Below, in pieces: positions 1,380 to 14,967 of a DNA stretch of 64,000 bases. The stretch is from a virus. The stretch's first letter is position 1. Each line of letters opens with the position of its first letter. A program made the translations under genes and the position numbers. The stretch is taken from the IMG/VR virus record IMGVR_UViG_3300009514_000004, positions 14,387-78,386 of that record; one strand, 5' to 3'. Under the pieces are notes generated by a model. The model was given only the letters and a program-made list of their open reading frames with translations, was not told where the DNA came from and made no database searches.

Positions 1380-1380
1380 A

Positions 1381-1455: not shown

Positions 1456-1460
1456 ACTAC

Positions 1461-1536: not shown

Positions 1537-1594
1537 GACACGGTAGGAGGGCTATAGCTGCGCTCCAGTAGACACTCGATCTCTGGAGCGCAGT

Positions 1595-2302: not shown

Positions 2303-2368
2303 TCAGATCGGTTGCTTAGTTCTCCGGGCGGCCTCGTAGAGAGGGTGAACCCGATCCGGAGGACAACG

Positions 2369-2533: not shown

Positions 2534-2574
2534 GAGATTCTGGATTTGCGTTGCAAGGACGGGTCACCTAACCT

Positions 2575-3111
2575 GTGGTGGTGACCACCTGCGCGTACAC
2601 CGGCTGCTCCAAGAATTTCAAACCTCGTTGGTCCCGACAGCAGTTCTGCTCTCGCGAGTGCGGGTACGCCTCGAAAAGGGCTCCTCGGGTCGATCTGGTC
2701 TGTTCAAACCCCAGATGCGGTAAAACCTTCTCCCGCAAAGTCTCGAAAACCAAGAACTCTAAGCATGGGTTCCAGTTTTGCGGGCGGAAGTGCAAGGAGT
2801 TCTCGCAAAGCCTGAAAGGTGATGTTGAGGCCATACGTCCAGATCACTACGGGACTGGAGCGGGGCGGAACACCTATCGACGGCTAATACAGACGATCGC
2901 AAAACCTTGTTGCTCGGATTGTGGGGAGGCTCGTCGGTACCTGCTGATGGTTCACCATGTGGATGGCGACCAGGACAACAACAACCCAAGCAATCTGGAA
3001 ATCGTATGCGCCAACTGTCATGTCCGGCGCCACCTCTCGATCAACGTAAACGGTGACTGGGTCTACAATCCACATGCTTTGACACCACGAGAGCAACTCG
3101 CGGGGGTGTAG
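2575..3111 (+). CDS. HNH homing-type endonuclease with N-terminal Zn-finger repeats
   Basis: CxxC...FCS repeats, CSDCGE...VHHVDGD..NN..SNL..VCANCH; lower GC than flanks; stop lies inside tRNA-Ala. Confidence 0.9.
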   Translation: MVVTTCAYTGCSKNFKPRWSRQQFCSRECGYASKRAPRVDLVCSNPRCGKTFSRKVSKTKNSKHGFQFCGRKCKEFSQSLKGDVEAIRPDHYGTGAGRNTYRRLIQTIAKPCCSDCGEARRYLLMVHHVDGDQDNNNPSNLEIVCANCHVRRHLSINVNGDWVYNPHALTPREQLAGV

Positions 3112-3175
3112 CTCAACGGTAGAGCACCTGGCTTGCAACCAGGGGATGGCGGTTCGATTCCGCCCACTTCCACCA
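3102..3175 (+). tRNA. tRNA-Ala(TGC)
   Basis: Cloverleaf, loop CT-TGC-AA, G3.U70, CCA. Confidence 0.95.
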
Positions 3176-3182
3176 AATACTC

Positions 3183-3255
3183 GGCGACGTCCAGGTGGCC
3201 TGGGCTCGGTCTGCAACACCGGTACCTGTCGGTTCGACTCCGACCGTCGCCTCCA
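3183..3255 (+). tRNA. tRNA-Cys(GCA)
   Basis: GGCGACG/CGTCGCC, loop CT-GCA-AC, U73, CCA. Confidence 0.93.
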
Positions 3256-3315
3256 GCTCAAGCGAGGCGTAGGGAAGCTCGAGTCCCCCTGCGCTGAGCG
3301 CGAGGTCCTCCCACG

Positions 3316-3756
3316 TTGATCGCCGTGGGGACAAGGAAGGGAACCCCTCCCCCTACTGCCGTCGTACCGTACCGGCTCCACCGGCTAGTCTTCGGCGGTG
3401 TCGTGGGGAGGGGTAGCGCTCAGACCACCGAAGACCACAGGAGAGCACGATGGGACGCAAGCGGAGGAGCAGGGCCTAACCTCGAGGTTGTAGGCCAGAC
3501 CGAGGACGGGTGGCGCGTCGTGCGCGGTACCTTCGAGTTCTTCGACACGTACGGGCTGCCCCTGGACATCGTCCTCGACATGCTCAGGCAGCGCCGGATG
3601 ATGCCCGACTGGACGCACCTGTACGATAGGTGTCTCGAGGCAGGGTGGCATCCAGAGAGATCCTTCCGGCGGCTTCAACAGATCGTCGGTGACGTCTACG
3701 GCCCTTCCTTCCGCGAGGAGTGGGAGCGCCGGATGAGAAAGCACATGGGGGTGTAG
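3316..3756 (+). CDS. small protein with AlaRS-like FDTYGLPLD helical motif (start uncertain)
   Basis: FEFFDTYGLPLDIVLDML resembles AlaRS F.LYDTYGFP.DLT; the best RBS+ATG (3450) is out of frame; stop lies inside tRNA-Asn. Confidence 0.6.
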   Translation: MIAVGTRKGTPPPTAVVPYRLHRLVFGGVVGRGSAQTTEDHRRARWDASGGAGPNLEVVGQTEDGWRVVRGTFEFFDTYGLPLDIVLDMLRQRRMMPDWTHLYDRCLEAGWHPERSFRRLQQIVGDVYGPSFREEWERRMRKHMGV

Positions 3757-3822
3757 CTCAGTGGCCAGAGCGCTAGGCTGTTAACCTGGAGTGCGTCGGT
3801 TCGAATCCGACCACCCCCTCCA
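3747..3822 (+). tRNA. tRNA-Asn(GTT)
   Basis: GGGGGTG/CACCCCC, loop CT-GTT-AA, CCA. Confidence 0.92.
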
Positions 3823-3928
3823 ATTCTTGCCCGGGGCTCTTTCGGGAGCTACTCTGGGTTCACCGGCATGTCGCGATCCGGGCCAACAGCGCGGCGTCAA
3901 TCCAACTCAAACAACGAAGGATGACGCC

Positions 3929-4366
3929 ATGACTACGACCATTCGCGCCAAGTTCCGCTGCATGTCCATCACCCGCACCTGGGACGGTATGGAGACCTGT
4001 ACCTTCCGACCCGTGAAGCGTGACTCCGGCCAGGACCCCGAAAACGAGATCTTCTGGAAGTACACCCCCAGCGGGTCGGCCAAGCTGACTTTCATGGGTG
4101 CGTGCGATTACCAGCCCGGGGCCTACTACTACATCGACATGACCCTCGCCGAGGACGGCGAGTGGACTCTCGACCTCGTCACCCGGCGAGGCAACGGGAG
4201 CGGCGATGTCGAGCTGGCCAGCACCTGGAAGCCGGTCACCGAAGGCGGCCTCCGGCACGGTAAGCTGGAGATGGGGATCGACTCCGCCCGGGTGATCGAC
4301 CTCTTCGGCCTCCCGGACTCCAAGTGGAACGTCGTGTTCACCTACGCTGAGGCGTCGGACGGCTGA
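3929..4366 (+). CDS. phage hypothetical protein (RAKF...EN..FWKYTPSG type)
   Basis: RBS GAAGGA; coding-like codon bias. Confidence 0.75.
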   Translation: MTTTIRAKFRCMSITRTWDGMETCTFRPVKRDSGQDPENEIFWKYTPSGSAKLTFMGACDYQPGAYYYIDMTLAEDGEWTLDLVTRRGNGSGDVELASTWKPVTEGGLRHGKLEMGIDSARVIDLFGLPDSKWNVVFTYAEASDG

Positions 4367-4575
4367 CCGCCGGCGCACTCGAGGCACACCAGGATCTCGC
4401 GCACGATCTCGTAGCCTTCCCCTCCGGGGTCGTGCGTCTCCCTCTGGGATCTGTTGTACCGCGACATGTTCGCGTCCCGGCGGGGTGGGTATCGGACGGG
4501 TCTCGTCTCGATCACCAACCTCCGGGCCGGCGTGTTAGCGGCAACAACCCTCGAACAACGCTGACATCTGTACAC
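4342..4575 (-). CDS. small Zn-ribbon protein
   Basis: CxxC at both ends; DPGGEGYEIVRE motif. Confidence 0.7.
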   Translation of the reverse strand: MYRCQRCSRVVAANTPARRLVIETRPVRYPPRRDANMSRYNRSQRETHDPGGEGYEIVREILVCLECAGGQPSDASA

Positions 4576-4681
4576 TCCGTACCAACCTCGTGGCCGACGC
4601 TACCCGGGACGGCTTACCAGGGGCGTTGTCTCCTTCGCGGAGACGCGGGTACTATACCGACTCAGCATCAAGGAGATCATC

Positions 4682-5446
4682 ATGAGTGGACAGGGCGTAC
4701 AACGACGAGGGTTCATCAAGTCCCTGTTCGCCGGTGCCGGCGCGGTCGCCGCCTGGTCGACGGTGGCCAAAGCCGCTCCGAAGCCTCAAGCGCTCGAGCG
4801 TCAAGGCAACGGCAAACCGGCCTCCAACCTCCTGCTCGCGGAGCAGGACGAGGTCTGGACTCTGGTCGACGGGTCCAAGCTCCCGGTCCGACGCATCGAG
4901 GTCCAGCTCGACTTCACCCCGGCGGTGACCTGGCAGTTCCTCCCGACCGACGAGATGCTCCGCAAGTGGGGCTACCACGTCGGACCACCGATGCTCGGCG
5001 GCCCTCCCGCCATCTACCCCGAGGACGGGGCGATGAAACGGGTCCAGCGCCGGGTGTTCGCGCGGTTCACCGAGGAGCAGCTTCGGGCCGACTACGTCGC
5101 ACAGAAGGCCGGATTCGACCCGGTCTCCACCGCGGCGCAGCTCCAGAAGGTCTCCCGAGGCGACCTGGTCAAAGCTCTCGAGGAGAAACGGGCCAAGGTC
5201 ATTGCCGAGGACAACGCGACCCCGTTCGACGAGATCCTGCGGCACCGCATGACCAACTGCTTCATCGGGTGGAAGCCGACCCGGCCCGAGGTCTACAAGA
5301 GCCACGACGAGTGGCCGGATCCTCACGGGGTATTCCTCGTGGTCCGTGGCCCGACCACCCTGTACGCCCTCGGCGTGAGTGAGTTCCCGGCGTCGTCCAA
5401 GAACATGCTCATCCAGGCGCCGGCCGCAGCGATCTTCGGTTCATGA
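4682..5446 (+). CDS. hypothetical protein with Tat-like N-terminus
   Basis: QRRGFIKSLFAGAGAVAA; RBS AAGGAG. Confidence 0.75.
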   Translation: MSGQGVQRRGFIKSLFAGAGAVAAWSTVAKAAPKPQALERQGNGKPASNLLLAEQDEVWTLVDGSKLPVRRIEVQLDFTPAVTWQFLPTDEMLRKWGYHVGPPMLGGPPAIYPEDGAMKRVQRRVFARFTEEQLRADYVAQKAGFDPVSTAAQLQKVSRGDLVKALEEKRAKVIAEDNATPFDEILRHRMTNCFIGWKPTRPEVYKSHDEWPDPHGVFLVVRGPTTLYALGVSEFPASSKNMLIQAPAAAIFGS

Positions 5447-5736
5447 GCCGCGAGAACGTCTTCCTGGTGAAGAAGTCGCCCGAGGAGCTTCGGGCGACTG
5501 TCGCCGAGTTGCTCCGGGCGATCCTGGGCAACCATGTGTCGTCGGACGCCCTCCACAGCTCTCCGTTGCGGGAGTTCACAGCCGACGATGTCTTCATCAA
5601 CGCCCACCTGGTCGATCGGGCCGGAGCGCTGCTCAACTGCCTCCTGGCGCTGGGGTACTCCCTGGACGCCAGCGAGTGGACCAGAGAGCTGCTCGACAAG
5701 ACAGACGCCTCGGCGTTGGAACGCATCACGGTCTGA
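5443..5736 (+). CDS. hypothetical protein
   Basis: ATGA overlap with the upstream gene; GC3 bias. Confidence 0.7.
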   Translation: MSRENVFLVKKSPEELRATVAELLRAILGNHVSSDALHSSPLREFTADDVFINAHLVDRAGALLNCLLALGYSLDASEWTRELLDKTDASALERITV

Positions 5737-5766
5737 TGACCCAGGTTGCTCCAAGAGCGTTTTTGA

Positions 5767-5842
5767 TCGGGGGTAGCACAACTGGCGGTGCAGCTGGCTT
5801 TGACCCAGAAGGTTGAGGGTTCGAACCCCTCCCCCCGAGCCA
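5767..5842 (+). tRNA. tRNA-Gln(TTG)
   Basis: TCGGGGG/CCCCCGA, loop CT-TTG-AC, CCA. Confidence 0.9.
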
Positions 5843-5854
5843 ATGACTGCGTCG

Positions 5855-6175
5855 TCAGGGCAGGTAATCCGGCCGGTCCACGATGACCTGGACGTAGCCT
5901 GAAGGGACAGGGCACTCGAGCTGGGTGCCATCGACGCGGATCCCGCTCTTGTACTCCCACCCGCACTCGATCGAGACGTTGCAGAAGGTGTGCAGGCATC
6001 CGTCCCACTGCCAGGAGCAGCACTTCGAGGTACCCGCCTCGTTGCACACCAGAGGGTCTCCGAGGCCCTCTGGGCGCTCTTGGACGACCGGCTTGGCCGG
6101 AAGGGTACATGGGTCCTTGCAGGCCGTCAGAGAGGCCAGAGCGAGGGTCAGGGCGATGATGGTGATGCGCAGCAT
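5855..6175 (-). CDS. Cys-rich lipoprotein
   Basis: Hydrophobic signal ending LTAC (lipobox); several further Cys. Confidence 0.75.
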   Translation of the reverse strand: MLRITIIALTLALASLTACKDPCTLPAKPVVQERPEGLGDPLVCNEAGTSKCCSWQWDGCLHTFCNVSIECGWEYKSGIRVDGTQLECPVPSGYVQVIVDRPDYLP

Positions 6176-6214
6176 GGCGGTCCTCCACAGGAGGGTCGCC
6201 TATAGCGCTCCTAC

Positions 6215-6288
6215 CGCTGCGTAGCACAACTAGGTGGTGCAGTCCCCTCATAAGGGAAAGGTTGTCGGTTCGAATCCGGCCGCAGCGA
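6215..6288 (+). tRNA. tRNA-Met/Ile2(CAT), elongator type, no encoded CCA
   Basis: CGCTGCG/CGCAGCG fully paired, loop CT-CAT-AA; lacks the initiator GGG/CCC stem. Confidence 0.85.
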
Positions 6289-6441
6289 TTTATACCGGGT
6301 AGTCCAGGTTGGGGTTAATCGGTTGTTAAAAGAAGCGGCGTGAGCCCGAGAACAGAAGAACCGGCCAGTTTTGCTGTTGCGGATGTCCTTGGGCTTTCGT
6401 TTGATCGCCGATCCGCAAAGGGCGCATGGGACGTTGGGCAT
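6289..6441 (-). pseudogene. truncated Zn-finger N-terminus of an HNH-type endonuclease
   Basis: MPNVPCALCGSAIKRKPKDIRNSKTGRFFCSRAHAASFNN, similar to the N-terminus of 2575-3111; no nuclease domain; low GC. Confidence 0.55.
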
Positions 6442-6444
6442 GTC

Positions 6445-6523
6445 TGTAGGTTAGTCGAACTTGTGGCTGTGACCAACGCCTAAGCCAGGCCTCGTTGGAG
6501 TTCGAGTCTCCCCCTTGCGACCA
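6445..6523 (+). pseudogene. degenerate tRNA-His(GTG)-like element
   Basis: TGTGG-CTGTGAC-CAACG arm, GGAG-TTCGAGT-CTCC T arm, ends ACCA; D loop deleted, acceptor poorly paired. Confidence 0.5.
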
Positions 6524-6572
6524 CTACTTCCTCTATACGTGTCGCTCAATACAGGCACCGGAGGTGATCGCC

Positions 6573-7337
6573 TTGGGGCGCAAAGAGCGATACAAGAAGC
6601 TGGCCGACAAGTTCCTGCCGACCATGAAGCGCATCTGCGCCGAAGAGGACACACCCTTCCAGGTGTGCTTCGCGCAGCTGCTGGTCGAGTCTGGAGGTCG
6701 CGGCGAGCTGGGCAAGCGGCACAACTACTTCGGGCTCAAGTACCCGAGGGGTAAGTACGCCAAGGTGCTCTGGGAGCGCCTCGGTAAGCCCGGCAAGCAC
6801 GTCAAGATGACGCCGGAGCGGCTCAAAGTCCGCGACCGCAACCATCTCGACAAGCTCCTCAAAAAGGGCGCGGTCTTCAGCGACAAGTTCATGAAGTCGC
6901 CCTACTACGGCAAGTCCGTGCGGCTCAAGATGCCCTGCGCCTTCTGCACTTTCCCGGACATGGAGGCCGGCATCCGCGCCTGGTGCATCTGGATGAAGCG
7001 GAGTCGGTACAAGGACGGCGGTATCTTCGCGACCGATCCCGTTCGCTGGATCGCCTACCGCTGGCTCCGGGGTTACGCGACCGCCAACGCTTACGTCGAA
7101 GCCGTCGTGAAACGGATGAACAGCGTGGCCAAGTACCTTGGCCTCGAGGAGTTCCGGGTCTCGATCGACGACGACCTCGACGAGCTTCTCGACGAGGCCC
7201 GTGAGCTAGGTCCTGGCCGTGACCGGTGGGACCTTGGCAAAGAGGCCCTCGAGGCCAACGGACTGACCGGTGTTCCCTACGAGGTCATCGAGTTCGAGGA
7301 GATGGAGATCGTCGTCGACCTCAACGAGGTGGGTTGA
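6573..7337 (+). CDS. GH73 glucosaminidase-like peptidoglycan hydrolase
   Basis: AQLLVESG..G.L....NYFGLKY and GYATANAY motifs; TTG start after GGAGG chosen. Confidence 0.8.
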   Translation: MGRKERYKKLADKFLPTMKRICAEEDTPFQVCFAQLLVESGGRGELGKRHNYFGLKYPRGKYAKVLWERLGKPGKHVKMTPERLKVRDRNHLDKLLKKGAVFSDKFMKSPYYGKSVRLKMPCAFCTFPDMEAGIRAWCIWMKRSRYKDGGIFATDPVRWIAYRWLRGYATANAYVEAVVKRMNSVAKYLGLEEFRVSIDDDLDELLDEARELGPGRDRWDLGKEALEANGLTGVPYEVIEFEEMEIVVDLNEVG

Positions 7338-7513
7338 TGGTCATCGCGGATTACCCTGGCGCGTACAAGCTCGAAGTCCACGGGACCAAGGTCAAGCTGG
7401 TCCTCGAGACAGAGGACCTGGAAGTCTACCAGACTTACCAGCTGGCCTCGGACCTTTACCGGGCGGGCCATCTGGCCAACCGCGCGGGCGACGACCAGTC
7501 GAAAAAGACTTAG
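7337..7513 (+). CDS. hypothetical protein
   Basis: TGATG coupling with the upstream gene. Confidence 0.65.
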   Translation: MVIADYPGAYKLEVHGTKVKLVLETEDLEVYQTYQLASDLYRAGHLANRAGDDQSKKT

Positions 7514-7537
7514 CCTGGGCTCGCACGGTGACTACCT

Positions 7538-7546
7538 GATGGGGTA
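7538..7546 (+). promoter_or_regulatory. GATGGGGTA motif (candidate phage promoter element)
   Basis: Recurs in intergenic DNA at 9212, 53009 and 57551, with a variant at 62680. Confidence 0.4.
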
Positions 7547-7606
7547 ACTGGGAACGACGCTCGTTGACAACCAGGTCGAAGAAACGGTCCTTTCGGGGAC
7601 CTTTGA

Positions 7607-7682
7607 CGCAGGGTGGAGAAGTGGTCATCTCGCTAGGCTCATAACCTGGAGACCGGAGGTTCGAATCCTCCTCCTGCTACCA
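7607..7682 (+). tRNA. initiator tRNA-fMet(CAT)
   Basis: C1xU72 mismatch, fMet-like D arm TGGAGAAGTGGTCATCTCG, CT-CAT-AA, CCA. Confidence 0.88.
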
Positions 7683-7686
7683 ACAT

Positions 7687-8056
7687 GGGGACGAACTGGT
7701 TTAGACGTGGGTGTCGGAGCCAGGACTGCGTGTCCCGGAGTCAGCGGACCGGGTCAGAAACTGCTGAAACCTTTAAGCGCCAACGACAACGTTTTCGCTC
7801 CTCTCGCACAAGCTGCGTGAGGCGGTCCGCTCGGAGCCTGCTCACGGCGCCGGGTCACGACTGTCATACAATGTGAGCTGGCCGTAGGGATCCAGGTGGG
7901 AGCCTGACCCTCGGTGAGAGCCCGAGAGGGTAACTCCCCGGCACCGTCGAGGTGGGCCGCTTGTGCTCGACGGTGGTGTATGAACGAGCGGGACTACACA
8001 CGTAGACGTTCTGAGCGAAGTTCTCGCGGACTCGGGTTCGACTCCCGACGTCTCCA
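7687..8056 (+). ncRNA. ssrA: tmRNA; tag (A)ANDNVFAPLAQAA at 7779-7820
   Basis: GGGGACG/CGTCTCC-A acceptor with G3.U70, T arm TCGGG-TTCGACT-CCCGA, 370 nt, tag ORF ending AA-stop; CCA not encoded. Confidence 0.95.
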
Positions 8057-8069
8057 AAAGACATGGGCT

Positions 8070-8150
8070 TTGGCTGGTGTGACGTTACGGCTACTTCAAC
8101 CTGTTAAGTTGTTTCTGTACAACCGTGGCACCCTTTCTCAGCCATTCCCA
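8070..8150 (+). ncRNA. Y-RNA-like element B displaying an Asn(GUU) anticodon loop
   Basis: TGGCTG/CAGCCA, GTTACGG/CCGTGGC, CAAC-CTGTTAA-GTTG; homologous to 11582-11660. Confidence 0.7.
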
Positions 8151-8229
8151 CACCTTAGAGGGTCGAGAAGCAGGTGACGAGGGGAGACGGAAGAGAGCTT
8201 CCTAGAACGACCCCTGACCCTCCTTTCAC

Positions 8230-8303
8230 GCGGGCGTAGCTCAACGGTAGAGCACTGGGTTTCCACCCCAGGTATGTCGGTTCGATTCCGTCTGCCCGCT
8301 CCA
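8230..8303 (+). tRNA. tRNA-Gly(TCC)
   Basis: GCGGGCG/TGCCCGC, loop TT-TCC-AC, CCA. Confidence 0.93.
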
Positions 8304-8326
8304 TTCGACCTGGGTACGGTGGCCTC

Positions 8327-8593
8327 ATGGCCTCCCGAGAAGTCCACTGCGCCGACTGCGTCGCCGAGCTGGGTGAGCCCTTTGGGCACGTCCACGACTG
8401 GCTTGACGCGTTCTACCCCGAGCTGGGTCACGACCACCGGCCCGAGCGTCACCACGACGAGGGCGTCGAAGAGGTCCGACGCATGTGGGGTGACCAGGCA
8501 GCTCAGGCCGCCGAGATCCACATCAAGCGCGACTACTACGGCGAGATCCCGACCAAGGACCAGGCCGATCTCTGGAAGCTCCTGATGAGCTAG
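8327..8593 (+). CDS. hypothetical protein
   Basis: GC3-biased ORF; CxxC near the N-terminus. Confidence 0.7.
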   Translation: MASREVHCADCVAELGEPFGHVHDWLDAFYPELGHDHRPERHHDEGVEEVRRMWGDQAAQAAEIHIKRDYYGEIPTKDQADLWKLLMS

Positions 8594-9090
8594 TCGTCTT
8601 CGCGCCGGGACAGCATCATCCTGTCCAGCCGGTCCCAGGCGTCCAGGAGAGCTTGACCCAGGGCGACGACCAGGTCGTCGTGGCTGTGGACGATCATCTG
8701 GCTGCCGGTGTCGCCGATCACGGTCCACCGGCCGGTGAACATCTCGGGCGTGTGCCTGCTCGAGATGGATCCGCGTCGGACGATCGAGAACTGGGCGTAG
8801 GGCGTCGCGTCGGTGAGCAGGTCGAGGAAGACCATGGCCATCCCCGAACCGCCGAGGTCCGGCAACGGCTTGTGCTCTTCCGGGTCGACCTCGATGCCGA
8901 TGCCCGACCCACGGAAGAAGGCGAAAAAGGTCCCCTCGGGCCGGATCTGGACGATGGTGAGCCTGTGCTCGTTCCAGCGCACAGACATCCCCTCCAACCA
9001 GCGCCAGCGCCGGTGACCCAACAGCTCGAGGGCGAGAGCTTCTTCATTCAAGAGATGCCAGCGGGGGCTGTGGGACCTGGGGGGGTCCAT
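8590..9090 (-). CDS. hypothetical protein
   Basis: Convergent ORF with 4-nt stop overlap. Confidence 0.65.
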   Translation of the reverse strand: MDPPRSHSPRWHLLNEEALALELLGHRRWRWLEGMSVRWNEHRLTIVQIRPEGTFFAFFRGSGIGIEVDPEEHKPLPDLGGSGMAMVFLDLLTDATPYAQFSIVRRGSISSRHTPEMFTGRWTVIGDTGSQMIVHSHDDLVVALGQALLDAWDRLDRMMLSRREDD

Positions 9091-9119
9091 TTACTCACCG
9101 GCATCTATAGGCACAACAA

Positions 9120-9196
9120 CGGGGTGTAGCTCAGTCTGGTGGAGCGCTGCGTTCGGGACGCAGAGGCCGCTGGTTCGAATCCAGTCACCCCGACCA
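9120..9196 (+). tRNA. tRNA-Pro(CGG)
   Basis: CGGGGTG/CACCCCG, loop TT-CGG-GA, CCA. Confidence 0.95.
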
Positions 9197-9320
9197 ACAC
9201 CGACTCGATACGATGGGGTACTGTACCAACAGGCGTGCCCAACGGAGCTGCGGCACCCTGGCCAGGGATAAGCGCCTCGAAGGCTAGTCGCAGCTCCTCA
9301 ACGACCTCCTGGACCTCGAC

Positions 9321-10124
9321 ATGATCATCGGACTCACCGGCGCCGCTCGATCCGGCAAGGACACCGTGGCGGACATGCTGCTCCTGCACTGGGTCTTGGG
9401 CAACAACGGCAAAACGATCGCCCGGTGGCTCGAGATCGCGCAGGAAGACCGCAAGGTCAAGTCCAACTGGGCCCGACGTATCCAGGTGGCCGGCCCTCTC
9501 AAGCAGTTTTGCCGAGAGGTCTTCGACTGGACCGAGGAACACACCGACGGCGACCTCAAAGACTCCGAGGACAAGCGTTACAAGCGCAACTGTGGCCGGT
9601 GCGTCGACGGCCAACAGGTGGCCAAGCCGATCGCGGTCGGCAACGATCAAATACGGAACCCCTGCAACGAGATGGGGCCCTGCTCTCACTGCGGCGGGCG
9701 GGGGTTCACCTTCCTCAAGCCGAGGGAGGCGATGCAGCGCCTGGGCTACGACTGGTCGTTCCCGCTGTACCCGACCATCTGGGCAGACAAGGCAGCTCGT
9801 ACGGCCAAAGCGTTCTCCGACGACCCTATCGCGCACCCGGCGCGCAGTACCCCCAAGGAGCGGTTGGCGATCGTGACCGACTGCCGGTTCATCGCCGACA
9901 TCAAGGCGGTGGCCGACGTCGGGGGCATCGTCATCCAGGTTCACCGTGACCACGAGGGTCTGACCGGGGCCGCGGCACAACACCACGGTGAGACGGTGCG
10001 GGACACGCCCGAATTCCAGGCGATCGTCCACCACCACATCTATAACGACGGGACGCTCGACGACCTCAACGACAAGGTCAAGGCGCTCGTAGGCGCACTC
10101 AAGAAGGAGGCCGGCATGAGGTGA
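9321..10124 (+). CDS. deoxynucleoside monophosphate kinase
   Basis: IIGLTGAARSGKDT, A.PLK, PRE.MQRLG and IVTDCRF..D motifs. Confidence 0.88.
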   Translation: MIIGLTGAARSGKDTVADMLLLHWVLGNNGKTIARWLEIAQEDRKVKSNWARRIQVAGPLKQFCREVFDWTEEHTDGDLKDSEDKRYKRNCGRCVDGQQVAKPIAVGNDQIRNPCNEMGPCSHCGGRGFTFLKPREAMQRLGYDWSFPLYPTIWADKAARTAKAFSDDPIAHPARSTPKERLAIVTDCRFIADIKAVADVGGIVIQVHRDHEGLTGAAAQHHGETVRDTPEFQAIVHHHIYNDGTLDDLNDKVKALVGALKKEAGMR

Positions 10125-10142
10125 ACTACCAAGGAGTTCCCC

Positions 10143-10370
10143 ATGTCCCGATCCTTCAAGAAGACCCCCGGCTGGTGTGACCGATCTCCGTTCGCCAAGC
10201 GTCAGGCGAACAAGCGCGTCCGGAAGTACAAGGGCGACGTCTCCAACGGCCGCTCGTACAAGAAGCTCTACTGCTCCTGGAACATCTGTGACTTCCGGTT
10301 CCTCCGCAAGGATGCCCGGTGGCGCAAGTACCCGCAGCGGCAGCCCGACTACAAGGCGCGCATGAAGTAA
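10143..10370 (+). CDS. small basic phage protein (MSRSFKK...NGRSYKKLYCSWNICDF)
   Basis: RBS AAGGAG; stop directly abuts tRNA-Val. Confidence 0.8.
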   Translation: MSRSFKKTPGWCDRSPFAKRQANKRVRKYKGDVSNGRSYKKLYCSWNICDFRFLRKDARWRKYPQRQPDYKARMK

Positions 10371-10442
10371 GGGCCCATAGCTTAATGGGAAAGCGCCGCT
10401 TTGACGTAGCGGAGAGACCTGGTTCGATCCCAGGTGGGCCCA
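10371..10442 (+). tRNA. tRNA-Val(GAC), no encoded CCA
   Basis: GGGCCCA/TGGGCCC, loop TT-GAC-GT. Confidence 0.88.
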
Positions 10443-10593
10443 CTGGCGCCGGGGAGGCCTTAACCCGGATGAACTGCGGACCTCCGAGAAACGCAGCGAG
10501 ATCGTGAACAACGGAACCAGCGGCCACAAGGGCCGCACCTGTTGCCGAGCAGGGCTGGCGGTCTAAGAAGGCGCAGCGCAAGTCGGCACCCAA

Positions 10594-10670
10594 CGGGATG
10601 TAGCTCAGTCTGGTGGAGCGCTTGTCTGGGGGACAAGAGGCCGCAGGTTCGAATCCTGTCATCCCGACCA
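10594..10670 (+). tRNA. tRNA-Pro(GGG)
   Basis: CGGGATG/CATCCCG, loop CT-GGG-GG, CCA. Confidence 0.95.
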
Positions 10671-10707
10671 ACTTGCTTAGTTCGAGACCCGCTCTCGTAG
10701 CTAGGCT

Positions 10708-10811
10708 GACAGCGAGTCCTTCTGACCCAACAGGGTAGCCCAGATCGGTCGGTGCCCGTGGATCGTATCATCGACCGGCAAGTACGGGGTCCACCAGCGG
10801 GGCTCGCTGTC
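10708..10811 (+). ncRNA. candidate pseudoknotted RNA module
   Basis: 12-bp closing helix 10708-19/10800-11; helix 10746-54/10769-77 whose loop complements 10783-94. Confidence 0.5.
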
Positions 10812-10816
10812 TACAC

Positions 10817-10881
10817 GGTGCCGTAGCTCAAAGGTAGAGCAGGCCGAGAGGTCAGACCCCGGTTCGAGTCCGGGCGGTACA
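10817..10881 (+). ncRNA. anticodon-less tRNA mimic (anticodon loop replaced by a GAGA tetraloop)
   Basis: Canonical TAGCTCAAAGGTAGAGCA D arm and CCCGG-TTCGAGT-CCGGG T arm, 6-bp acceptor, GGCC-GAGA-GGTC arm, no CCA. Confidence 0.7.
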
Positions 10882-10885
10882 AGGA

Positions 10886-10957
10886 GCAGGTGGCCCGTCG
10901 ACAGACGGACGGCAAGGAGCCATGGATCCGACCCGCGAGTCCTAGACGGCCATCTGC
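10886..10957 (+). ncRNA. candidate small RNA, 13-bp terminal stem with one bulged C
   Basis: GCAGGTGG(C)CCGTC / GACGGCCATCTGC; inner GGAC/GTCC and GGC-AAGGA-GCC. Confidence 0.45.
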
Positions 10958-10990
10958 AACGTTCCTATACCACAACGACGGGAGGTAGCT

Positions 10991-11575
10991 GTGAGCGACC
11001 CCATGTACGAAGCGGGGTTCCTCGCAGTGACCCCGGAGTTGAGGCAGGCGGTTCTCGAGGGGACCCCCTGGATAGACAGGACCGAGGCCCGGCGTGAGTG
11101 TTTCATGTCCGACGGCGGAGGCCTGTCCTACACCTACGGCAAGGGCAGAGGCGTGCGCACGTACACCTCGATCCCCTACACGTCAGTCGTTCGCGACGTG
11201 CTCGAGTTCGTCAACGGCCTGGTCTTCGCGTGCGGGTGGGCAGCCATGAACGGCTGTTTCCTCAACCGCTACGACCACGACCGGATGCACCTCGGGTGGC
11301 ACGCCGACGACTTCCGCAAGATGGACCACGCGGCTCCGGTCGTCGTGGTCAGCTTCGGCGAGGAGCGCGAGATCTGGTGGCGCAGGGTCGGAGAGCGAGG
11401 GATCACCCCGCCCGATCAGCGTCAGCTCCTGGCCGAGGGGAGCGTCTTCGTGATGCCCCCAGGCTTCCAGCACTCCCACGAGCACCGCATCCCCAAGGGA
11501 GACCGCTCGATGGGTCCGAGGGTCTCGATGACCTTCCGTCGGTTCCTCCCGCAGGGGGAAGAGCCGATAGCGTAA
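10991..11575 (+). CDS. alkB: AlkB-family 2OG-Fe(II) dioxygenase
   Basis: N.Y......LGWHADD, SFGEER, H.IPK and RVSMTFR motifs. Confidence 0.9.
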   Translation: MSDPMYEAGFLAVTPELRQAVLEGTPWIDRTEARRECFMSDGGGLSYTYGKGRGVRTYTSIPYTSVVRDVLEFVNGLVFACGWAAMNGCFLNRYDHDRMHLGWHADDFRKMDHAAPVVVVSFGEEREIWWRRVGERGITPPDQRQLLAEGSVFVMPPGFQHSHEHRIPKGDRSMGPRVSMTFRRFLPQGEEPIA

Positions 11576-11581
11576 ACCGGG

Positions 11582-11660
11582 TTGGCTGGTGCGACTTACG
11601 GGTTACTTCACACTTGCACTGTGGTTTTCCATAACCTGTGAGGCTTTTCTCAGCCTTCCC
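11582..11660 (+). ncRNA. Y-RNA-like element A displaying an Ala(UGC) anticodon loop
   Basis: GGCTG/CAGCC, 10-bp TTACGGGTTA/TAACCTGTGA, CACA-CTTGCAC-TGTG; about 40 nt upstream of ro60. Confidence 0.72.
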
Positions 11661-11698
11661 ATCCACTCGTACTGATTCTCTCCTACGGAGGTGTGACC

Positions 11699-13408
11699 AT
11701 GAGCTTCATCAACCCAACTGCGTCCAGCGTCGTCAAGAGCGTTACCGACCCCAAGAACCAGCCCGTGATCGCCACGCCCGACAAGGCCGCCGGCGAGCAC
11801 CTCAACTGGATGGGCGGCATCAGCTTCGACATCAACGACCCGCTGCTCCGGCTCCAGGTGGCCGCGTCGAGCTGCTTCTTCGGCGAGCCGATGTACTACC
11901 ACAAGGACTCGGGCGACAAGCGACCCAAGCGGGTTACCGCACCGCAGCGTCGCGCGCGACTCAACGCCGCCCAGCTCACGAAGCTCCGGGACACCCTGGG
12001 GGCGGTCGATCCGGCCGAGTGGCGATCTCTGACGCCGGCCGACCTCATGGTCAAGGCCATCGACGAGGCCCTGGCGCACGACCCGGAGAAGACCCTCGAG
12101 TTCGCGGCCTTCCTGCGGCAGACGCTGCACATCCGGACGACCCCGCAGGTCATCATGGTCCGCGCGGCGCTCCTGGACAGCGTCAAGGGCACAGGGCTCA
12201 TCACCAAGTACGCAACGGCCATCATCGGCCGGCTCGACGAGGTGACGGTCCAGTACGCCTACTTCCTGTCCCTCGGCAAGGGCAAGACCCCGCCGAAGAA
12301 CCTGAAGCGCAACTGGGCCCGCGCCATCCAGCGTGCCAACGAGTACCAGCTCGCGAAGTACCGGATGGAGGGTCGCTCGGTGAACCTCTACGACGTCGTC
12401 AACATCAGCCACCCGAAGGGGCCCCTGATCGACAAGCTCATGAAGGGCAAGCTGAAGCTCGGCGGTGACGGCCGAAAGACCTGGGAGTCCATCCGCTCCG
12501 GCGGCGGCTCCTGGACCGAGGCCGCGGCGGTCATGGGCCACATGGCTCTGCTGAGGAACCTCCGCAACCTGTCGGAGAACGACGCCCTGACCAAGGAGCT
12601 GTGCGACAAGCTCGTCGCCGGCGCCGCCAAGGGCAAGCAGCTCCCGTTCCGGTACTTCAGCGCCTTCAAGGCTCTGGAGGGCAAGGCCAAGAGCGGGCTG
12701 GTGTTCGACGCCATCGAGGCCGCGCTCGAGGCTTCCATCGGGAACCTCCCGCGCTTCTCGGGCCGCGTGTGCTCCCTGGTCGACAACTCGGGCTCCGCCT
12801 GGGGGACGACCACGTCCTCGATGGGGTCCATGCACATGGCTTCCATCGGGAACCTCATGGGGGTCCTGACGGGCAAGGCTTCCGACGAGGGTCACATCGG
12901 CATCTTCGGTGACCACCTCAAGATGCGGCCGGTCCGCAAGAAGGAGTCGACCTTCGACGCCCTCAAGGCCATCGACCAGATCGGCCGCAACGAGGTCGGA
13001 GGGGCTACCGAGCACGGCGTGTGGCTGTTCTGGCGCGACGCCATCAAGCAGCGCCAGCACTGGGACACCGTGTTCGTCTACAGCGACATGCAGGCCGGTC
13101 ACGGCGGGCTCTACGGCAACAAGCCGGGTGAGTACGCTGACTACCTGTGGGGCGATGACGGGTACGCCCGGTACATCGACGTCGCCAAGCTGGTCAAGAC
13201 GTACCGCGAGAAGGTCAACCCGAAGGTGAACGTCTTCCTCGTCCAGATCGCCGGGTACCAGGACACCCTGATTCCCGAGTTCTACGACAGGACGTACATC
13301 CTCGGCGGCTGGTCCGACCAGCTGCTGCGCTTCGCGGCGCAGATGATCGCCATGACCGAGCAGGCACCGACGGCACAGCCTCCCTCCCAGGAGCCGTCGG
13401 CAACCTGA
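11699..13408 (+). CDS. rsr: Ro60/TROVE-vWA RNA-binding protein
   Basis: TROVE-like helical region (A..LR....IRT.PQ, ALLRNLRNL, LPFRYFSA) plus vWA VDNSGS and VFVYSDMQ. Confidence 0.9.
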   Translation: MSFINPTASSVVKSVTDPKNQPVIATPDKAAGEHLNWMGGISFDINDPLLRLQVAASSCFFGEPMYYHKDSGDKRPKRVTAPQRRARLNAAQLTKLRDTLGAVDPAEWRSLTPADLMVKAIDEALAHDPEKTLEFAAFLRQTLHIRTTPQVIMVRAALLDSVKGTGLITKYATAIIGRLDEVTVQYAYFLSLGKGKTPPKNLKRNWARAIQRANEYQLAKYRMEGRSVNLYDVVNISHPKGPLIDKLMKGKLKLGGDGRKTWESIRSGGGSWTEAAAVMGHMALLRNLRNLSENDALTKELCDKLVAGAAKGKQLPFRYFSAFKALEGKAKSGLVFDAIEAALEASIGNLPRFSGRVCSLVDNSGSAWGTTTSSMGSMHMASIGNLMGVLTGKASDEGHIGIFGDHLKMRPVRKKESTFDALKAIDQIGRNEVGGATEHGVWLFWRDAIKQRQHWDTVFVYSDMQAGHGGLYGNKPGEYADYLWGDDGYARYIDVAKLVKTYREKVNPKVNVFLVQIAGYQDTLIPEFYDRTYILGGWSDQLLRFAAQMIAMTEQAPTAQPPSQEPSAT

Positions 13409-13414
13409 CTCTCC

Positions 13415-13455
13415 GGTAGGGGGCTCCCATCCGCACCTGGGTGGGGGCTTCCTGC
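13415..13455 (+). terminator. long GC hairpin after ro60
   Basis: GGTAGG...CCCATCC-GCACCT-GGGTGGG...CCTGCC; no U tract. Confidence 0.4.
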
Positions 13456-13493
13456 CACCCCTCTCGGTAGAAAGGCTATGGATCCGGGTAGAC

Positions 13494-13886
13494 ATGAGCA
13501 TTCCAACCTGGGCACCTCCTGGCCATTTCAACTACAACGTCTACGGCGACCCCGTGGCTATCGCCCACATCAAGGGGTGGGCTGCGGCGGAGAACGTCAC
13601 CCCCCACGAAGGTGGGGACGATGACACCGAGACCTTCTTCGGGGGATTCTTCACCGAAGCGGAGATCGAGCGCCTCCGGCGCGTTGCCGGCGACACGGTC
13701 GAGGAGGCTCATTTCCTGGGCCTCCGCACCGACGACGTCGAGACCTACCGGGCCTGGCTCAAAGGCCAGGACATCCCGGTGGTCCACGAGGTCCTCGAGC
13801 AACCCGAGGGCTTCTTCAACGCCTACTACCGCCCGGACGACATCGAGACGATCTCGACCGGGTACCTGGGCACTCCGCCTCTGTAG
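13494..13886 (+). CDS. acidic hypothetical protein
   Basis: GC3 bias; stop codon is the TAG at positions 8-10 of tRNA-Thr. Confidence 0.75.
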   Translation: MSIPTWAPPGHFNYNVYGDPVAIAHIKGWAAAENVTPHEGGDDDTETFFGGFFTEAEIERLRRVAGDTVEEAHFLGLRTDDVETYRAWLKGQDIPVVHEVLEQPEGFFNAYYRPDDIETISTGYLGTPPL

Positions 13887-13950
13887 CTCAACGGTAGAGC
13901 CCCGGCCTTGTAAGCCGGTGATGTCGGTTCGAACCCGACCGGGGGCTCCA
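13877..13950 (+). tRNA. tRNA-Thr(TGT)
   Basis: GCCTCTG/CGGGGGC, loop CT-TGT-AA, CCA. Confidence 0.92.
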
Positions 13951-13955
13951 GATCC

Positions 13956-14192
13956 TCAGCTGAGGATTCCCTTCACCGTGCGGAGTCGGTAACCGTCGGC
14001 TACCAGATGGCCGAGCTGGTCGACGAGCTTGTCGACCGTGTCGGTGGGGAGCGGGGAGTGCGACTTGTCGGACAGGTCGCGGAAGTGGAAGCCGAGATCG
14101 GACGCGTAGTCCTGATCGCAGGCCCAGATACAGACGGCGCGGCCGTCTGGGAGAGCGAGGCCTTTGCAGCCACACTCGAAGCGGACGAACAT
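13956..14192 (-). CDS. hypothetical protein
   Basis: AAGGAGGA RBS before ATG 14192. Confidence 0.7.
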   Translation of the reverse strand: MFVRFECGCKGLALPDGRAVCIWACDQDYASDLGFHFRDLSDKSHSPLPTDTVDKLVDQLGHLVADGYRLRTVKGILS

Positions 14193-14345
14193 GCGTCCTC
14201 CTTGGGTTGAGGTTTCGTCCTCTGACCTCTCTACGAGGTCGCCCCCGAGAATCAGCAAGCCTCGTGCCATCTCTAAGTCCGCGAACCCAGGTGATCCCCA
14301 CCTGGTCGACCGCAAGAAATCCTGCGGTCCTGTAAGAGATCTTAC

Positions 14346-14419
14346 GCCTGTGTAGCTCAACGGTAGAGCAGCCGCCTCGTAAGCGACCGATGAGGGTTCG
14401 ACTCCCTCCGCAGGCTCCA
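14346..14419 (+). tRNA. tRNA-Thr(CGT)
   Basis: GCCTGTG/CGCAGGC, loop CT-CGT-AA, CCA. Confidence 0.92.
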
Positions 14420-14422
14420 GAT

Positions 14423-14497
14423 GCCGGTATAGCACAACGGCCAGTGCACCGCCGTGGTAAGGCGGGGATCCGGGTTCAACTCCCGGTGCCGGCTCCA
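14423..14497 (+). tRNA. tRNA-Thr(GGT)
   Basis: GCCGGTA/TGCCGGC, loop GT-GGT-AA (unusual G32), CCA. Confidence 0.9.
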
Positions 14498-14502
14498 CCT
14501 TC

Positions 14503-14581
14503 GTCCCTGTCGTCTAGTCAGGCCCAGGACACCAGGCTCTCAACCTGGAGACGGCGAGTTCAAATCTCCCCAGGGACGCCA
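14503..14581 (+). tRNA. tRNA-Glu(CTC)
   Basis: GTCCCTG/CAGGGAC, loop CT-CTC-AA, GCCA. Confidence 0.92.
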
Positions 14582-14605
14582 GATCTTCTATAGGCCTTCC
14601 TCTGT

Positions 14606-14788
14606 ATGGAATCCTTCCCCGACTACAACGCCTGGCTCACCGTCGCGTGCATCCTCTGGATCGCCATCCTGGTCCTCCTGCTGCACGTCACAGCCCGATG
14701 GGTGTTCGGTGACCAGGAGGCCCCACCCAAGCCCAAGAAGACCCCAAAGAGGCCCCCTGGGGCCCCTCACAAGACTGTGCTCTCGTAG
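14606..14788 (+). CDS. small single-pass membrane protein
   Basis: One TM helix then a Pro/Lys tail; stop lies inside tRNA-Arg(CCG). Confidence 0.6.
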   Translation: MESFPDYNAWLTVACILWIAILVLLLHVTARWVFGDQEAPPKPKKTPKRPPGAPHKTVLS

Positions 14789-14853
14789 TTCAACGGATAG
14801 AACGCAGGTCTCCGGAACCTGAGATAGAGGTTCGATTCCTCTCGGGAGTACCA
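14779..14853 (+). tRNA. tRNA-Arg(CCG)
   Basis: GCTCTCG/CGGGAGT, loop CT-CCG-GA, CCA; near-paralog of Arg(GCG). Confidence 0.93.
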
Positions 14854-14891
14854 TCCGCTCTAGCGGCCCCATCGTCGTGTTCCTACAATGT

Positions 14892-14967
14892 GCGTCCGTG
14901 GTCTAACTGGAAAGGCGCTCGGCTTCTAACCGGGAAGATGGGGGTTCGACTCCTCCCGGACGCGCCA
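14892..14967 (+). tRNA. tRNA-Arg(TCT)
   Basis: GCGTCCG/CGGACGC, loop CT-TCT-AA, CCA. Confidence 0.93.

What the first reader, a model, noticed from the sequence alone, without database searches (positions are those of the whole stretch)
11582..13408. Y-RNA-like ncRNA upstream of phage Ro60 displays a tRNA-Ala(UGC) anticodon loop; a homolog displays a different one
Seen: 11582-11660 and 8070-8150 align as TTGGCTGGTG(C/T)GAC-(G)TTACGG-T(T)ACTTCA-[hairpin]-GTTT..AACC..GTG..TTTCTCAGCC..TTCCCA, and the stems are kept despite sequence differences. The main variable part is a 4-bp stem with a 7-nt loop shaped like an anticodon loop. Here it is CACA-CTTGCAC-TGTG, versus CTTGCAA in the phage tRNA-Ala(TGC). 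Knowledge: the Ro60-binding 5' strand of human Y1/Y3 is GGCUGGUCCGA, and this element has GGCUGGUGCGA (10/11). Described bacterial YrlA RNAs mimic the tRNA D/T elbow, not the anticodon. Inference: a modular Ro60-bound RNA family with swappable anticodon loops. It could be a decoy for host anticodon nucleases or a tether linking Ro60 to tRNA surveillance/repair. I know no description of it but cannot verify novelty.
Basis: partly seen in the sequence, partly recalled or inferred. Interest (0 to 1): 0.92.

Follow-up and report, generated by a model that had tools for sequence, protein, structure and literature searches.

The report
Phage Ro60 partner RNAs, anticodon-arm-like tips
A large phage carries four small RNA genes that share one docking stem for its Ro60-like protein; two end in a hairpin shaped like a tRNA anticodon arm. 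The pairing is a known kind of particle, but this RNA family and its anticodon-like tip appear undescribed.

Summary
Window 8070-8147 and 11582-11659 are two paralogous ~78-nt RNA genes. Two more copies lie just upstream of the window in the same virus record.

A covariance model built only from other phages finds exactly these four copies. The family occurs on the same strand beside one clade of TROVE genes in about 160 phage and bacterial loci, and its two helices covary strongly. The adjacent 569-aa protein folds like Ro60.

Rfam YrlA and Y_RNA do not match. The RNAs share YrlA's conserved YUAC and, more loosely, a 5' bulge motif.

The "anticodon loop" reading is partly supported. The hairpin after UUAC has 7-nt loops far more often than shuffled controls. 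A recurrent subclass reads C-U-N-N-U-A-A, identical to loops of tRNAs that read ANN codons. In long relatives this hairpin sits where a tRNA anticodon arm sits.

Against it: most members have plain loops, only two of the four copies here are anticodon-like, and no function has been tested. The 10/11 match to human Y RNA lies partly in a helix that covaries freely.

This scan has noted similar handle-plus-module RNAs beside other Ro60-like genes on other DNA. Verdict: new variant of a known kind.

The parts
8070..8147 (+). Copy A of the Y-type RNA, starting 11 nt after the Rfam tmRNA match. P1 8071-8076/8139-8144; 5' bulge GGUGUGA 8076-8082; P2 8084-8090/8123-8129; CUAC 8091-8094; 3' bulge UUCUC 8135-8139.
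   Evidence: R1 40.5 bits. Leave-out model R3 27.9 bits, E 1e-4. Sequence.
8097..8111 (+). Copy A tip hairpin P3: 4-bp stem CAAC/GUUG and 7-nt loop CUGUUAA. The loop is identical to the anticodon loop of the phage tRNA-Asn(GTT).
   Evidence: The same loop sits on different stems in L171:4891, L173:1053 and L087:3270.
11582..11659 (+). Copy B of the Y-type RNA. It starts 6 nt after the stop of the upstream 2OG-Fe(II) oxygenase ORF and ends 39 nt before the TROVE start codon. P1 11583-11588/11651-11656; 5' bulge GGUGCGA 11588-11594; P2 11595-11602/11635-11642; UUAC 11603-11606; UUCUC 11647-11651.
   Evidence: R1 37.1 bits. Leave-out model R3 30.7 bits, E 2e-5. Sequence.
11608..11624 (+). Copy B tip hairpin P3: 5-bp stem UCACA/UGUGG and 7-nt loop CUUGCAC. 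It resembles a tRNA-Ala(UGC) loop; the phage tRNA has CUUGCAA.
11699..13408 (+). Ro60-like protein, 569 aa: a TROVE helical ring plus a vWA-like domain. It is the presumed partner of the RNAs.
   Evidence: Pfam TROVE 20.6 bits, below the cut-off of 23. PDB phmmer hit to Thermus phage phiLo Ro60, 2e-14. AlphaFold model pLDDT 79. The top 13 Foldseek matches are all Ro60 structures, probability 1.0. 2576 homologues at E<1e-20.
10991..11575 (+). Context: an AlkB-type 2OG-Fe(II) oxygenase ORF ending just before copy B.
   Evidence: Pfam PF13532, 7e-15.
7687..8059 (+). Context: the phage tmRNA gene immediately upstream of copy A. The copies sit inside the tRNA/tmRNA array.
   Evidence: Rfam RF00023, 127 bits; ARAGORN.

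Best explanation
These are genes for small Y-type RNAs, the RNA partners of the phage's Ro60-like ring protein.

Each RNA has a closing helix P1. Next comes an asymmetric internal loop, 5' GGUG(Y)GA opposite 3' UUCUC, that most likely docks the protein. Then follow a second helix P2, an invariant YUAC, and a variable tip. The genome holds four paralogs with the same docking stem and four different tips.

In copies A and B the tip is a hairpin with the dimensions and loop signature of a tRNA anticodon arm. In longer relatives the same hairpin is followed by a 4-5-nt variable loop and a T arm, so it sits in the anticodon arm's place. The tip is therefore best read as a tRNA-derived module.

The RNAs are probably cut out of the long tRNA/tmRNA/ORF transcripts by the enzymes that process the neighbouring tRNAs.

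Shown: family membership, covariation, linkage to TROVE genes, Ro60 fold, loop statistics.

Inferred: that the protein binds the internal loop, that the RNAs are discrete, and that the tip presents an anticodon-arm look-alike to some tRNA-directed factor. That last step I rate at about 0.3.
For: (1) Covariation on a MAFFT alignment of 44 members. 83% of cells are paired against 55% after shuffling. There are 183 double-change cells against 73, reached by 0 of 500 shuffles, and the signal collapses when partners are slid. It is stronger still on 82 phage members.

(2) Model R1 finds 97 matches in 81 phage sources (80 TROVE loci plus L167) and 89 in 80 bacterial TROVE loci. All are on the TROVE strand and most lie within about 700 nt upstream.

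(3) The leave-out model R3 recovers only the four own copies. The closest TROVE relatives carry 2-4 tandem copies with the same YGGUGUGA motif.

(4) The protein is Ro60-like by fold.

(5) There is experimental precedent. Thermus phage Ro60 binds short upstream RNAs through a CGAA bulge motif (PMC12135203). YrlA carries a 5' GNCGAA motif and a conserved YUAY (PMC4201824).

(6) Tip hairpin statistics:
- 7-nt loops: 28 observed against 9.7 +/- 2.9 in shuffles.
- U33 in 32 of 54 loops (p 5e-7) and A37 in 33 of 54 (p 2e-5).
- The loops CUGUUAA, CUUGUAA, CUCAUAA/C, CUGAUAA, CUCUUAA and CUUUUAA each recur on unrelated stems.

(7) In long forms, a 5-bp stem, a 7-nt loop and 4-5 nt precede the T arm. 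Examples are L009:3710, L027:3831, L103:5873, L153:5666 and L171:4496.

(8) L020:8754 and L080:8593 share the handle and the loop CUCAUA, but their stems are entirely different.
Against: - No transcript, end-mapping or binding data exist for this phage; no sequencing run was listed.
- Rfam YrlA (RF02553) and Y_RNA do not match.
- The bulge motif GGUG(Y)GA is only similar to GNCGAA/CGAA.
- The bacterial-only model R2 finds copy C, finds A only weakly, and misses B and D. This clade is therefore divergent.
- Most family members have plain loops, and copies C and D of the same genome lack an anticodon-like tip.
- The loop statistics count related sequences, so the p-values are inflated.
- Copy B lies in the TROVE leader and could act in cis.
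Confidence: 0.72

Rival explanations
1. The anticodon-like tip is a functional mimic. The Ro60-RNA particle displays an anticodon stem-loop of the ANN-decoding type. This either occupies a host enzyme that attacks or modifies anticodon loops (a decoy or competitor), or tethers such an enzyme or a repair enzyme to Ro60.
For: - The loop frame C32-U33...U36-A37-A38 is kept while positions 34-35 and the stems change.
- Identical loops sit on unrelated stems in different lineages.
- The loci lie in tRNA arrays beside repair-type genes: an AlkB-like ORF at 10991-11575, a Pnkp-like kinase-phosphatase at 62718-63689, and an RNA ligase and a metallophosphatase downstream of TROVE in L171.
- Hughes et al. 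proposed that YrlA may competitively inhibit an anticodon nuclease (PMC7790460).
Against: - No experiment bears on this.
- Only about 15% of members carry such a loop.
- Copy B's loop (C36, C38) departs from the common frame.
- The stems do not resemble those of the cognate phage tRNAs.
- With about 37 tRNA genes in the phage, a match of the triplets to phage tRNAs is expected by chance.
Confidence: 0.3
2. The tip is an evolutionary leftover. The family arose from tRNA genes, short forms lost the T, acceptor and D parts, and the remaining hairpin has no role beyond closing the RNA. Only the docking stem matters, for gating Ro60 or tethering an exonuclease.
For: - All intermediate architectures exist: full tRNA-like bodies, T arm only (copy D), hairpin only, plain loop.
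- Bacterial short forms have decayed to UUC-N6-8-GAA loops.
- Between the close relatives L171 and L173 the plain tips change fast while the handle stays fixed.
- The tRNA-dimer origin model is already in the literature (10.1101/312249).
Against: Neutral decay should blur positions 32, 33, 36, 37 and 38 as fast as 34-35, yet they stay fixed across distant phages. L171:4891 and L173:1053, which carry the anticodon-like tip, are identical over 77 nt, while their neighbour copies differ.
Confidence: 0.35
3. Copy B is mainly a cis-acting leader. The Ro60-like protein binds its own mRNA upstream of the start codon and controls its own synthesis.
For: Copy B ends 39 nt before the ATG. The short form lies directly upstream of TROVE in nearly every bacterial locus. 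No promoter or terminator separates them.
Against: Copies A, C and D sit after the tmRNA and tRNA-Phe and not before a coding sequence. Many loci carry 2-5 tandem copies, some of them downstream of TROVE.
Confidence: 0.12

Closest known systems
YrlA / YrlB Y RNAs of bacteria and phages with Rsr (Chen et al. 2014, PMC4201824; Wang et al. 2018, 10.1101/312249; Rfam RF02553)
   Same: - Encoded beside a Ro60/TROVE gene on the same strand, often in several copies.
- A terminal stem with a purine-rich 5' bulge motif.
- A conserved YUAY after the stem, followed in many YrlAs by a 'V' stem-loop.
- tRNA-like modules. Copy D has a T arm, and long relatives have T, acceptor-like and D arms.
- YrlB is likewise a short form without a tRNA body.
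   Different: - The Rfam YrlA model gives no match at any copy, nor at long relatives at the gathering score.
- The bulge motif is GGUG(Y)GA / CAGUGA, not GNCGAA.
- A conserved 3' UUCUC is present.
- Copies A, B and C lack T and D arms.
- The hairpin after YUAC has anticodon-loop form, whereas published YrlA is said to lack an anticodon loop.
- The TROVE protein belongs to a divergent clade.
Thermus phage phiLo Ro60 with Yrl1/Yrl2 (PMC12135203; PDB 9KOP, 9L5Y)
   Same: It is the closest solved structure to the window's protein. A phage Ro60 binds short stem-bulge-stem RNAs encoded just upstream of its gene, through a bulge motif that contains CGA.
   Different: About 20% protein identity. The phiLo upstream region gives no match to model R1. 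No UUAC or anticodon-like hairpin is described there.
Metazoan Y RNAs with Ro60 (Rfam RF00019; PDB 1YVP)
   Same: The 5' strand GGCUGGUGCGA matches GGCUGGUCCGA in 10 of 11 positions. The plan is the same: a closing stem with a bulged Ro60 site and a variable apical module.
   Different: No Rfam match even at E<=10. The GGCU part is a freely covarying helix in this family, and the mismatch falls on a family-invariant G. The 3' strand differs.
tRNA anticodon arm
   Same: A 4-5-bp stem and a 7-nt loop with Y32, U33, A37 and A/C38. Loop A is identical to that of tRNA-Asn(GUU). In long relatives the hairpin is followed by a 4-5-nt variable loop and a T arm.
   Different: There is no tRNA body in copies A and B. 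The stems are unrelated to the phage tRNAs. ARAGORN and the Rfam tRNA model do not call them.

Membership tests
Ro60-associated Y RNA (functional class) | Encoded next to a Ro60/TROVE gene on the same strand | tested here: met
   Copy B ends 39 nt before the TROVE start codon. 186 family matches in 161 sources (160 TROVE loci plus L167) all lie on the TROVE strand.
Ro60-associated Y RNA (functional class) | 5'/3' closing stem with a bulged or internal-loop Ro60 site (GGUCCGA / GNCGAA / CGAA type) on the 5' strand | tested here: inconclusive
   The stem and an asymmetric internal loop are present and supported by covariation. The motif is GGUG(C/U)GA, which is similar to the published motifs but not identical.
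Ro60-associated Y RNA (functional class) | Physically bound by the Ro60 protein; exists as a discrete small RNA | not testable with these tools
   No RNA run was listed. The complex predictor takes no RNA.
YrlA (Rfam RF02553) | Covariance-model score at or above the gathering score of 69 bits | tested here: not met
   No match at any of the four copies. The best sub-threshold match in the genome scores 24.7 bits, and none of those listed lies at any of the four copies. There are no hits at E<=10 on the two elements.
YrlA (Rfam RF02553) | tRNA-like domain with conserved T and D stem-loops | tested here: not met
   Copies A, B and C have none. Copy D has a T arm (CUCAG-UUCGACU-CUGAG) and an acceptor-like hairpin but no D arm.
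YrlA (Rfam RF02553) | Conserved YUAY after the 5' strand of the stem | tested here: met
   CUAC at 8091-8094 and UUAC at 11603-11606. The U, A and C of YUAC are invariant and its first base nearly so in the 44-sequence alignment.
Metazoan Y_RNA (Rfam RF00019) | Covariance-model match | tested here: not met
   No match at E<=10.
TROVE-linked handle RNA family defined here (models R1, R3) | Match to a model built without any sequence of this genome | tested here: met
   R3: E 2e-5 (B), 1e-4 (A), 6e-4 (C), 2e-3 (D). There are no other matches in 67 kb.
Ro60 / TROVE protein | TROVE helical ring followed by a vWA domain | tested here: met
   The top 13 Foldseek matches are full-length Ro60 structures, E 1e-16 to 2e-10. 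Separate vWA matches cover the C-terminal part. Pfam TROVE alone is below its cut-off, 20.6 against 23 bits.

The most novel reading that the evidence does not exclude
Phage and bacterial Ro60-like particles use a common docking stem to display interchangeable pieces of tRNA. One class of piece is an anticodon stem-loop of the ANN-decoding type (C-U-N-N-U-A-A). It serves as bait or shield for enzymes that cut or modify anticodon loops during the phage-host conflict over tRNAs.
Probability: 0.2. Interest if true: 0.85.

Novelty: new variant of a known kind. Interest (0 to 1): 0.58.

Why it matters
Ro60 and Y RNAs are conserved from bacteria to humans, yet what the variable module of bacterial Y RNAs binds is still unknown. 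This family gives a large, covarying and easily aligned set of about 190 examples. One docking stem carries nothing, an anticodon-arm look-alike, a T arm, or a whole permuted tRNA.

Four consequences follow:
- It gives a concrete RNA family to add to Rfam.
- It suggests that the 'V' stem-loop of YrlA-type RNAs is the counterpart of the anticodon arm.
- It supports a tRNA origin of these RNAs.
- It names simple hairpins, such as CUGUUAA on a 4-bp stem, that can be used as baits to find the missing effector.

If the tips prove to be decoys or tethers for anticodon-loop enzymes, Ro60 particles would be linked directly to the tRNA-centred arms race between phages and bacteria.

Tried and rejected
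- Rfam at the gathering score over the window, and at E<=10 over both elements: only tRNAs and the tmRNA, with noise hits to snoRNA and miRNA models.
- Rfam over the Bacillus phage G spacer: nothing.
- Megablast of the locus against deposited phages: no match.
- The search for related loci with the single protein: nothing. An alignment was needed.
- An exact pattern scan of viral contigs gave two loci, L003 and L004. Their middles are unrelated and I read them as chance.
- Single-sequence folding z-scores were not significant.
- The bacterial-only model R2 found copy C, found A only at E 0.14, and missed B and D.
- Model R1 found nothing near the Ro60 genes of Thermus phage phiLo or Desulfovibrio phage 7757.
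- Sequencing runs: none was listed for 7600-8400, so there is no RNA holder.
- No sigma-70-type promoter or terminator lies near the copies.
- I considered a pseudoknot between the loop of copy B (GCAC) and its bulge (GUGC). Copy A has no equivalent, so I dropped it.
- Matching the loop triplets to tRNAs encoded by the phage is uninformative, because the phage encodes about 37 tRNAs.
- The stems of the hairpins do not resemble the anticodon stems of the cognate phage tRNAs, so there is no sign of recent copying.
- Two reviews on bacterial Y RNAs, and the supplements of Chen et al. 2014, are not held. I could not check whether this clade's RNAs are listed there.
Full report
WHAT IS THERE

The window is part of a 138-kb IMG/VR virus record judged 26% complete, so it comes from a very large phage. 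It carries 24 tRNA genes and a tmRNA gene, and 7 more tRNA genes lie in the 1.7 kb upstream of the window that L167 covers.

They align at 76% identity, with conserved flanks and a different middle. Copy A starts 11 nt after the Rfam tmRNA match. Copy B starts 6 nt after the stop of an AlkB-type 2OG-Fe(II) oxygenase ORF and ends 39 nt before the ATG of a 569-aa ORF.

THE PROTEIN

Pfam TROVE scores just under its cut-off (20.6 against 23 bits). The nearest solved relative by sequence is the Ro60 of Thermus phage phiLo (2e-14). An AlphaFold model (pLDDT 79) matches only Ro60 structures at the top of a PDB search: phiLo, Xenopus, human and Deinococcus Rsr, all at probability 1.0. vWA domains match the C-terminal part.

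The protein belongs to a large, well-conserved clade with 2576 hits at E<1e-20. The clade includes Sorangium and Polyangium, Chloroflexota and many jumbo phages. The best deposited phage relative is Bacillus phage G gp540 at 40% identity.

THE RNA FAMILY

Reading the 1-kb spacer upstream of phage G gp540 showed at least five tandem elements. They share a YUACUUC word and an UCUCA word with the window's copies. The word YTACTTC is strongly concentrated on the TROVE strand within 1 kb upstream of the gene in 160 phage and bacterial loci.

The common plan has these parts, in order:
- a closing helix P1;
- an asymmetric internal loop, 5' CAGUGA (GGUG(Y)GA in the window's clade, GAAGCGG in Firmicutes phages) opposite 3' UUCUC;
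- a helix P2 ending in CGG/CCG;
- an invariant UUAC;
- a tip that begins with UUC and, in short bacterial forms, ends in GAAACA.

On a MAFFT alignment of 44 short members both helices covary. 83% of cells are paired against 55% after shuffling. There are 183 double-change cells against 73, reached by 0 of 500 shuffles, and the signal collapses when partners are slid. On 82 phage members aligned to the model the values are 89.5% against 53.8%.

Model R1 finds 97 matches in 81 phage sources (80 TROVE loci plus L167) and 89 in 80 bacterial loci, all on the TROVE strand.

In the window's own genome R1 finds four copies. A and B are in the window. C and D lie at record positions 14103-14187 and 14197-14300, just upstream of the window and directly after a tRNA-Phe gene.

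Model R3 was built from 51 sequences of other phages only. It recovers exactly these four copies and nothing else in 67 kb. A bacterial-only model finds C clearly, A weakly, and misses B and D, so the clade is divergent. The closest TROVE relatives (59-63% identity) carry two to four tandem copies upstream with the same YGGUGUGA motif.

RELATION TO KNOWN Y RNAs

Chen et al. (PMC4201824) found YrlA RNAs beside Ro60 genes in 254 bacteria and 22 phages. A later paper lists Bacillus phage G among phages with a Ro60 homolog and Y RNA-like ncRNAs, citing Chen et al. (PMC12135203). YrlA has a 5' GNCGAA motif, a conserved YUAY, an optional 'V' stem-loop, and T, acceptor-like and D arms. Its crystal structure shows a tRNA mimic that "lacks the anticodon loop" (10.1101/312249).

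The present family shares the gene linkage, the YUAY word and, in long members, the tRNA-like arms. But the Rfam YrlA model (RF02553, gathering score 69 bits) gives no match at any copy, nor over long relatives at the gathering score. Y_RNA gives none either.

Copies A, B and C have no T or D arm. Copy D has a T arm and an acceptor-like hairpin only. I therefore do not file A and B as YrlA. They are short Y-type RNAs in the manner of YrlB, in a family that Rfam does not hold.

The 10/11 identity to the human Y RNA 5' end is real as a string. However, GGCU lies in P1, where every pair type occurs in the family, and the one mismatch falls on a family-invariant G. Only the G-GUG(Y)GA part can be compared with the Ro60 site.

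THE TIP HAIRPIN

Copy A has CAAC-CUGUUAA-GUUG. Copy B has UCACA-CUUGCAC-UGUGG. Both start inside the UUC that follows UUAC.

Across the family a hairpin at this place has a 7-nt loop far more often than in shuffled tips. In phage members the count is 28 against 9.7 +/- 2.9. Perfect-stem hairpins with Y32, U33 and R37 number 11 against 1.05 +/- 0.9, with a maximum of 5 in 300 shuffles.

Among 54 distinct 7-nt loops, U33 occurs 32 times (p 5e-7) and A37 33 times (p 2e-5). The combination U33+U36+A37 occurs 16 times against 1.3 expected. These counts include related sequences, so the p-values are generous.

The loops are canonical anticodon loops of tRNAs that read ANN codons:
- CUGUUAA on three unrelated stems, in the window, L171/L173 and a Bradymonadia genome;
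- CUUGUAA or UUUGUAA;
- CUCAUAA/C or AUCAUAA/C;
- CUGAUAA;
- CUCUUAA;
- CUUUUAA;
- CUUCUAA;
- AUGCUAA.

So the frame C-U-N-N-U-A-A is kept and mainly positions 34-35 vary. Copy B (C36, C38) is an outlier.

L020:8754 and L080:8593 share the handle and the loop CUCAUA, but their stems are entirely different. This points to selection on the loop.

In long members the hairpin (5 bp plus 7 nt) is followed by 4-5 nt and a T arm. That is the geometry of anticodon arm, variable loop and T arm (L009:3710, L027:3831, L103:5873, L153:5666, L171:4496). Helix P2 then emerges between the D arm and this hairpin.

Other permutations exist:
- D arm, anticodon arm and T arm enclosed by P2 (L065, L154);
- open-acceptor tRNA-like genes in Polyangiales in which the whole Y module replaces the anticodon loop.

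LIMITS

- Most members, especially bacterial ones, have plain UUC-N6-8-GAA tips or other hairpins.
- Only two of the four copies in this genome are anticodon-like.
- The hairpin stems are unrelated to the phage's own tRNA stems.
- The triplets matching phage tRNAs means little when the phage has about 37 tRNAs.
- No expression or binding data could be obtained.
- No promoter or terminator flanks the copies. This fits release from long transcripts by tRNA-processing enzymes but does not show it.

MECHANISM

Best supported (about 0.7): these are partner RNAs of the Ro60-like protein, docked through the internal loop, with a tRNA-derived tip.

Two readings of the tip remain open at about 0.3 each.
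- It acts as a mimic, for example a competitor or tether for anticodon-loop enzymes. This idea was already voiced for YrlA in PMC7790460, and it fits the AlkB-like and Pnkp-like genes here and the RNA ligase next to TROVE in L171.
- It is a conserved leftover of tRNA ancestry.

A purely cis-acting role of copy B is less likely, because copies A, C and D do not precede genes.

EARLIER NOTES OF THIS SCAN

Notes on this window agree on the copy A loop. They add a D/T-arm tRNA mimic at 10817-10881, which I saw in the sequence.

On other DNA the scan has repeatedly reported Ro60-like genes with arrays of 'handle' RNAs carrying tRNA parts. One note mentions anticodon-arm mimics in a different Ro-like clade. 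Those notes are unverified by me. They suggest that the phenomenon is general and that this window is one more instance of it, with a different handle.

Noticed in passing
G000:C1:14103-14300 (L167:1407-1604), 87-284 nt upstream of the window start: Two further paralogs lie directly after a tRNA-Phe gene. Copy C has two tip hairpins, one closed by a GAAA tetraloop. Copy D has a T arm (CUCAG-UUCGACU-CUGAG) and a 9-bp acceptor-like hairpin but no D arm.
   Followed up: yes
L005:1880-2937 (Bacillus phage G, spacer upstream of gp540), also L005:700-800: At least five tandem members of the same RNA family fill the 1-kb unannotated spacer before the TROVE gene. A further copy with a T arm lies about 2 kb upstream. 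None is annotated in the record.
   Followed up: partly
L124:3689-3821, L134:3700-3826, L137:3815-3942, L140:3705-3837: Polyangiales genomes carry tRNA-like genes with normal acceptor, D and T arms. In them a 62-74-nt insert replaces the anticodon loop, and the insert is a circularly permuted copy of the Y module, closed by a loop at P1. Each sits just upstream of a short-form copy and the TROVE gene.
   Followed up: partly
L065:2997-3128, L065:3534-3668, L154:3745-3867: In these members helix P2 takes the place of the acceptor stem and encloses a D arm, a full anticodon arm (UUU, GUA, UGA) and a T arm. The Rfam tRNA model hits the two inner parts in L065.
   Followed up: partly
window 10817-10881: A tRNA-like element with good D and T arms whose anticodon arm is replaced by GGCC-GAGA-GGUC. 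It is not matched by the handle models.
   Followed up: partly
window 62718-63689: A T4 Pnkp-like ORF with a kinase P-loop domain and a PNK3P/HAD phosphatase domain. It fits an RNA-repair toolkit in this phage.
   Followed up: partly
L171:6885-9237: In a close relative the TROVE gene is followed by a metallophosphatase and an RNA ligase (PF09414) on the same strand.
   Followed up: no
window 438-14967: All tRNA genes printed from the window encode their 3' CCA except the tRNA-Met at 6215-6288. The Y-type copies are spaced 6-14 nt from the preceding gene, like members of the tRNA array.
   Followed up: no
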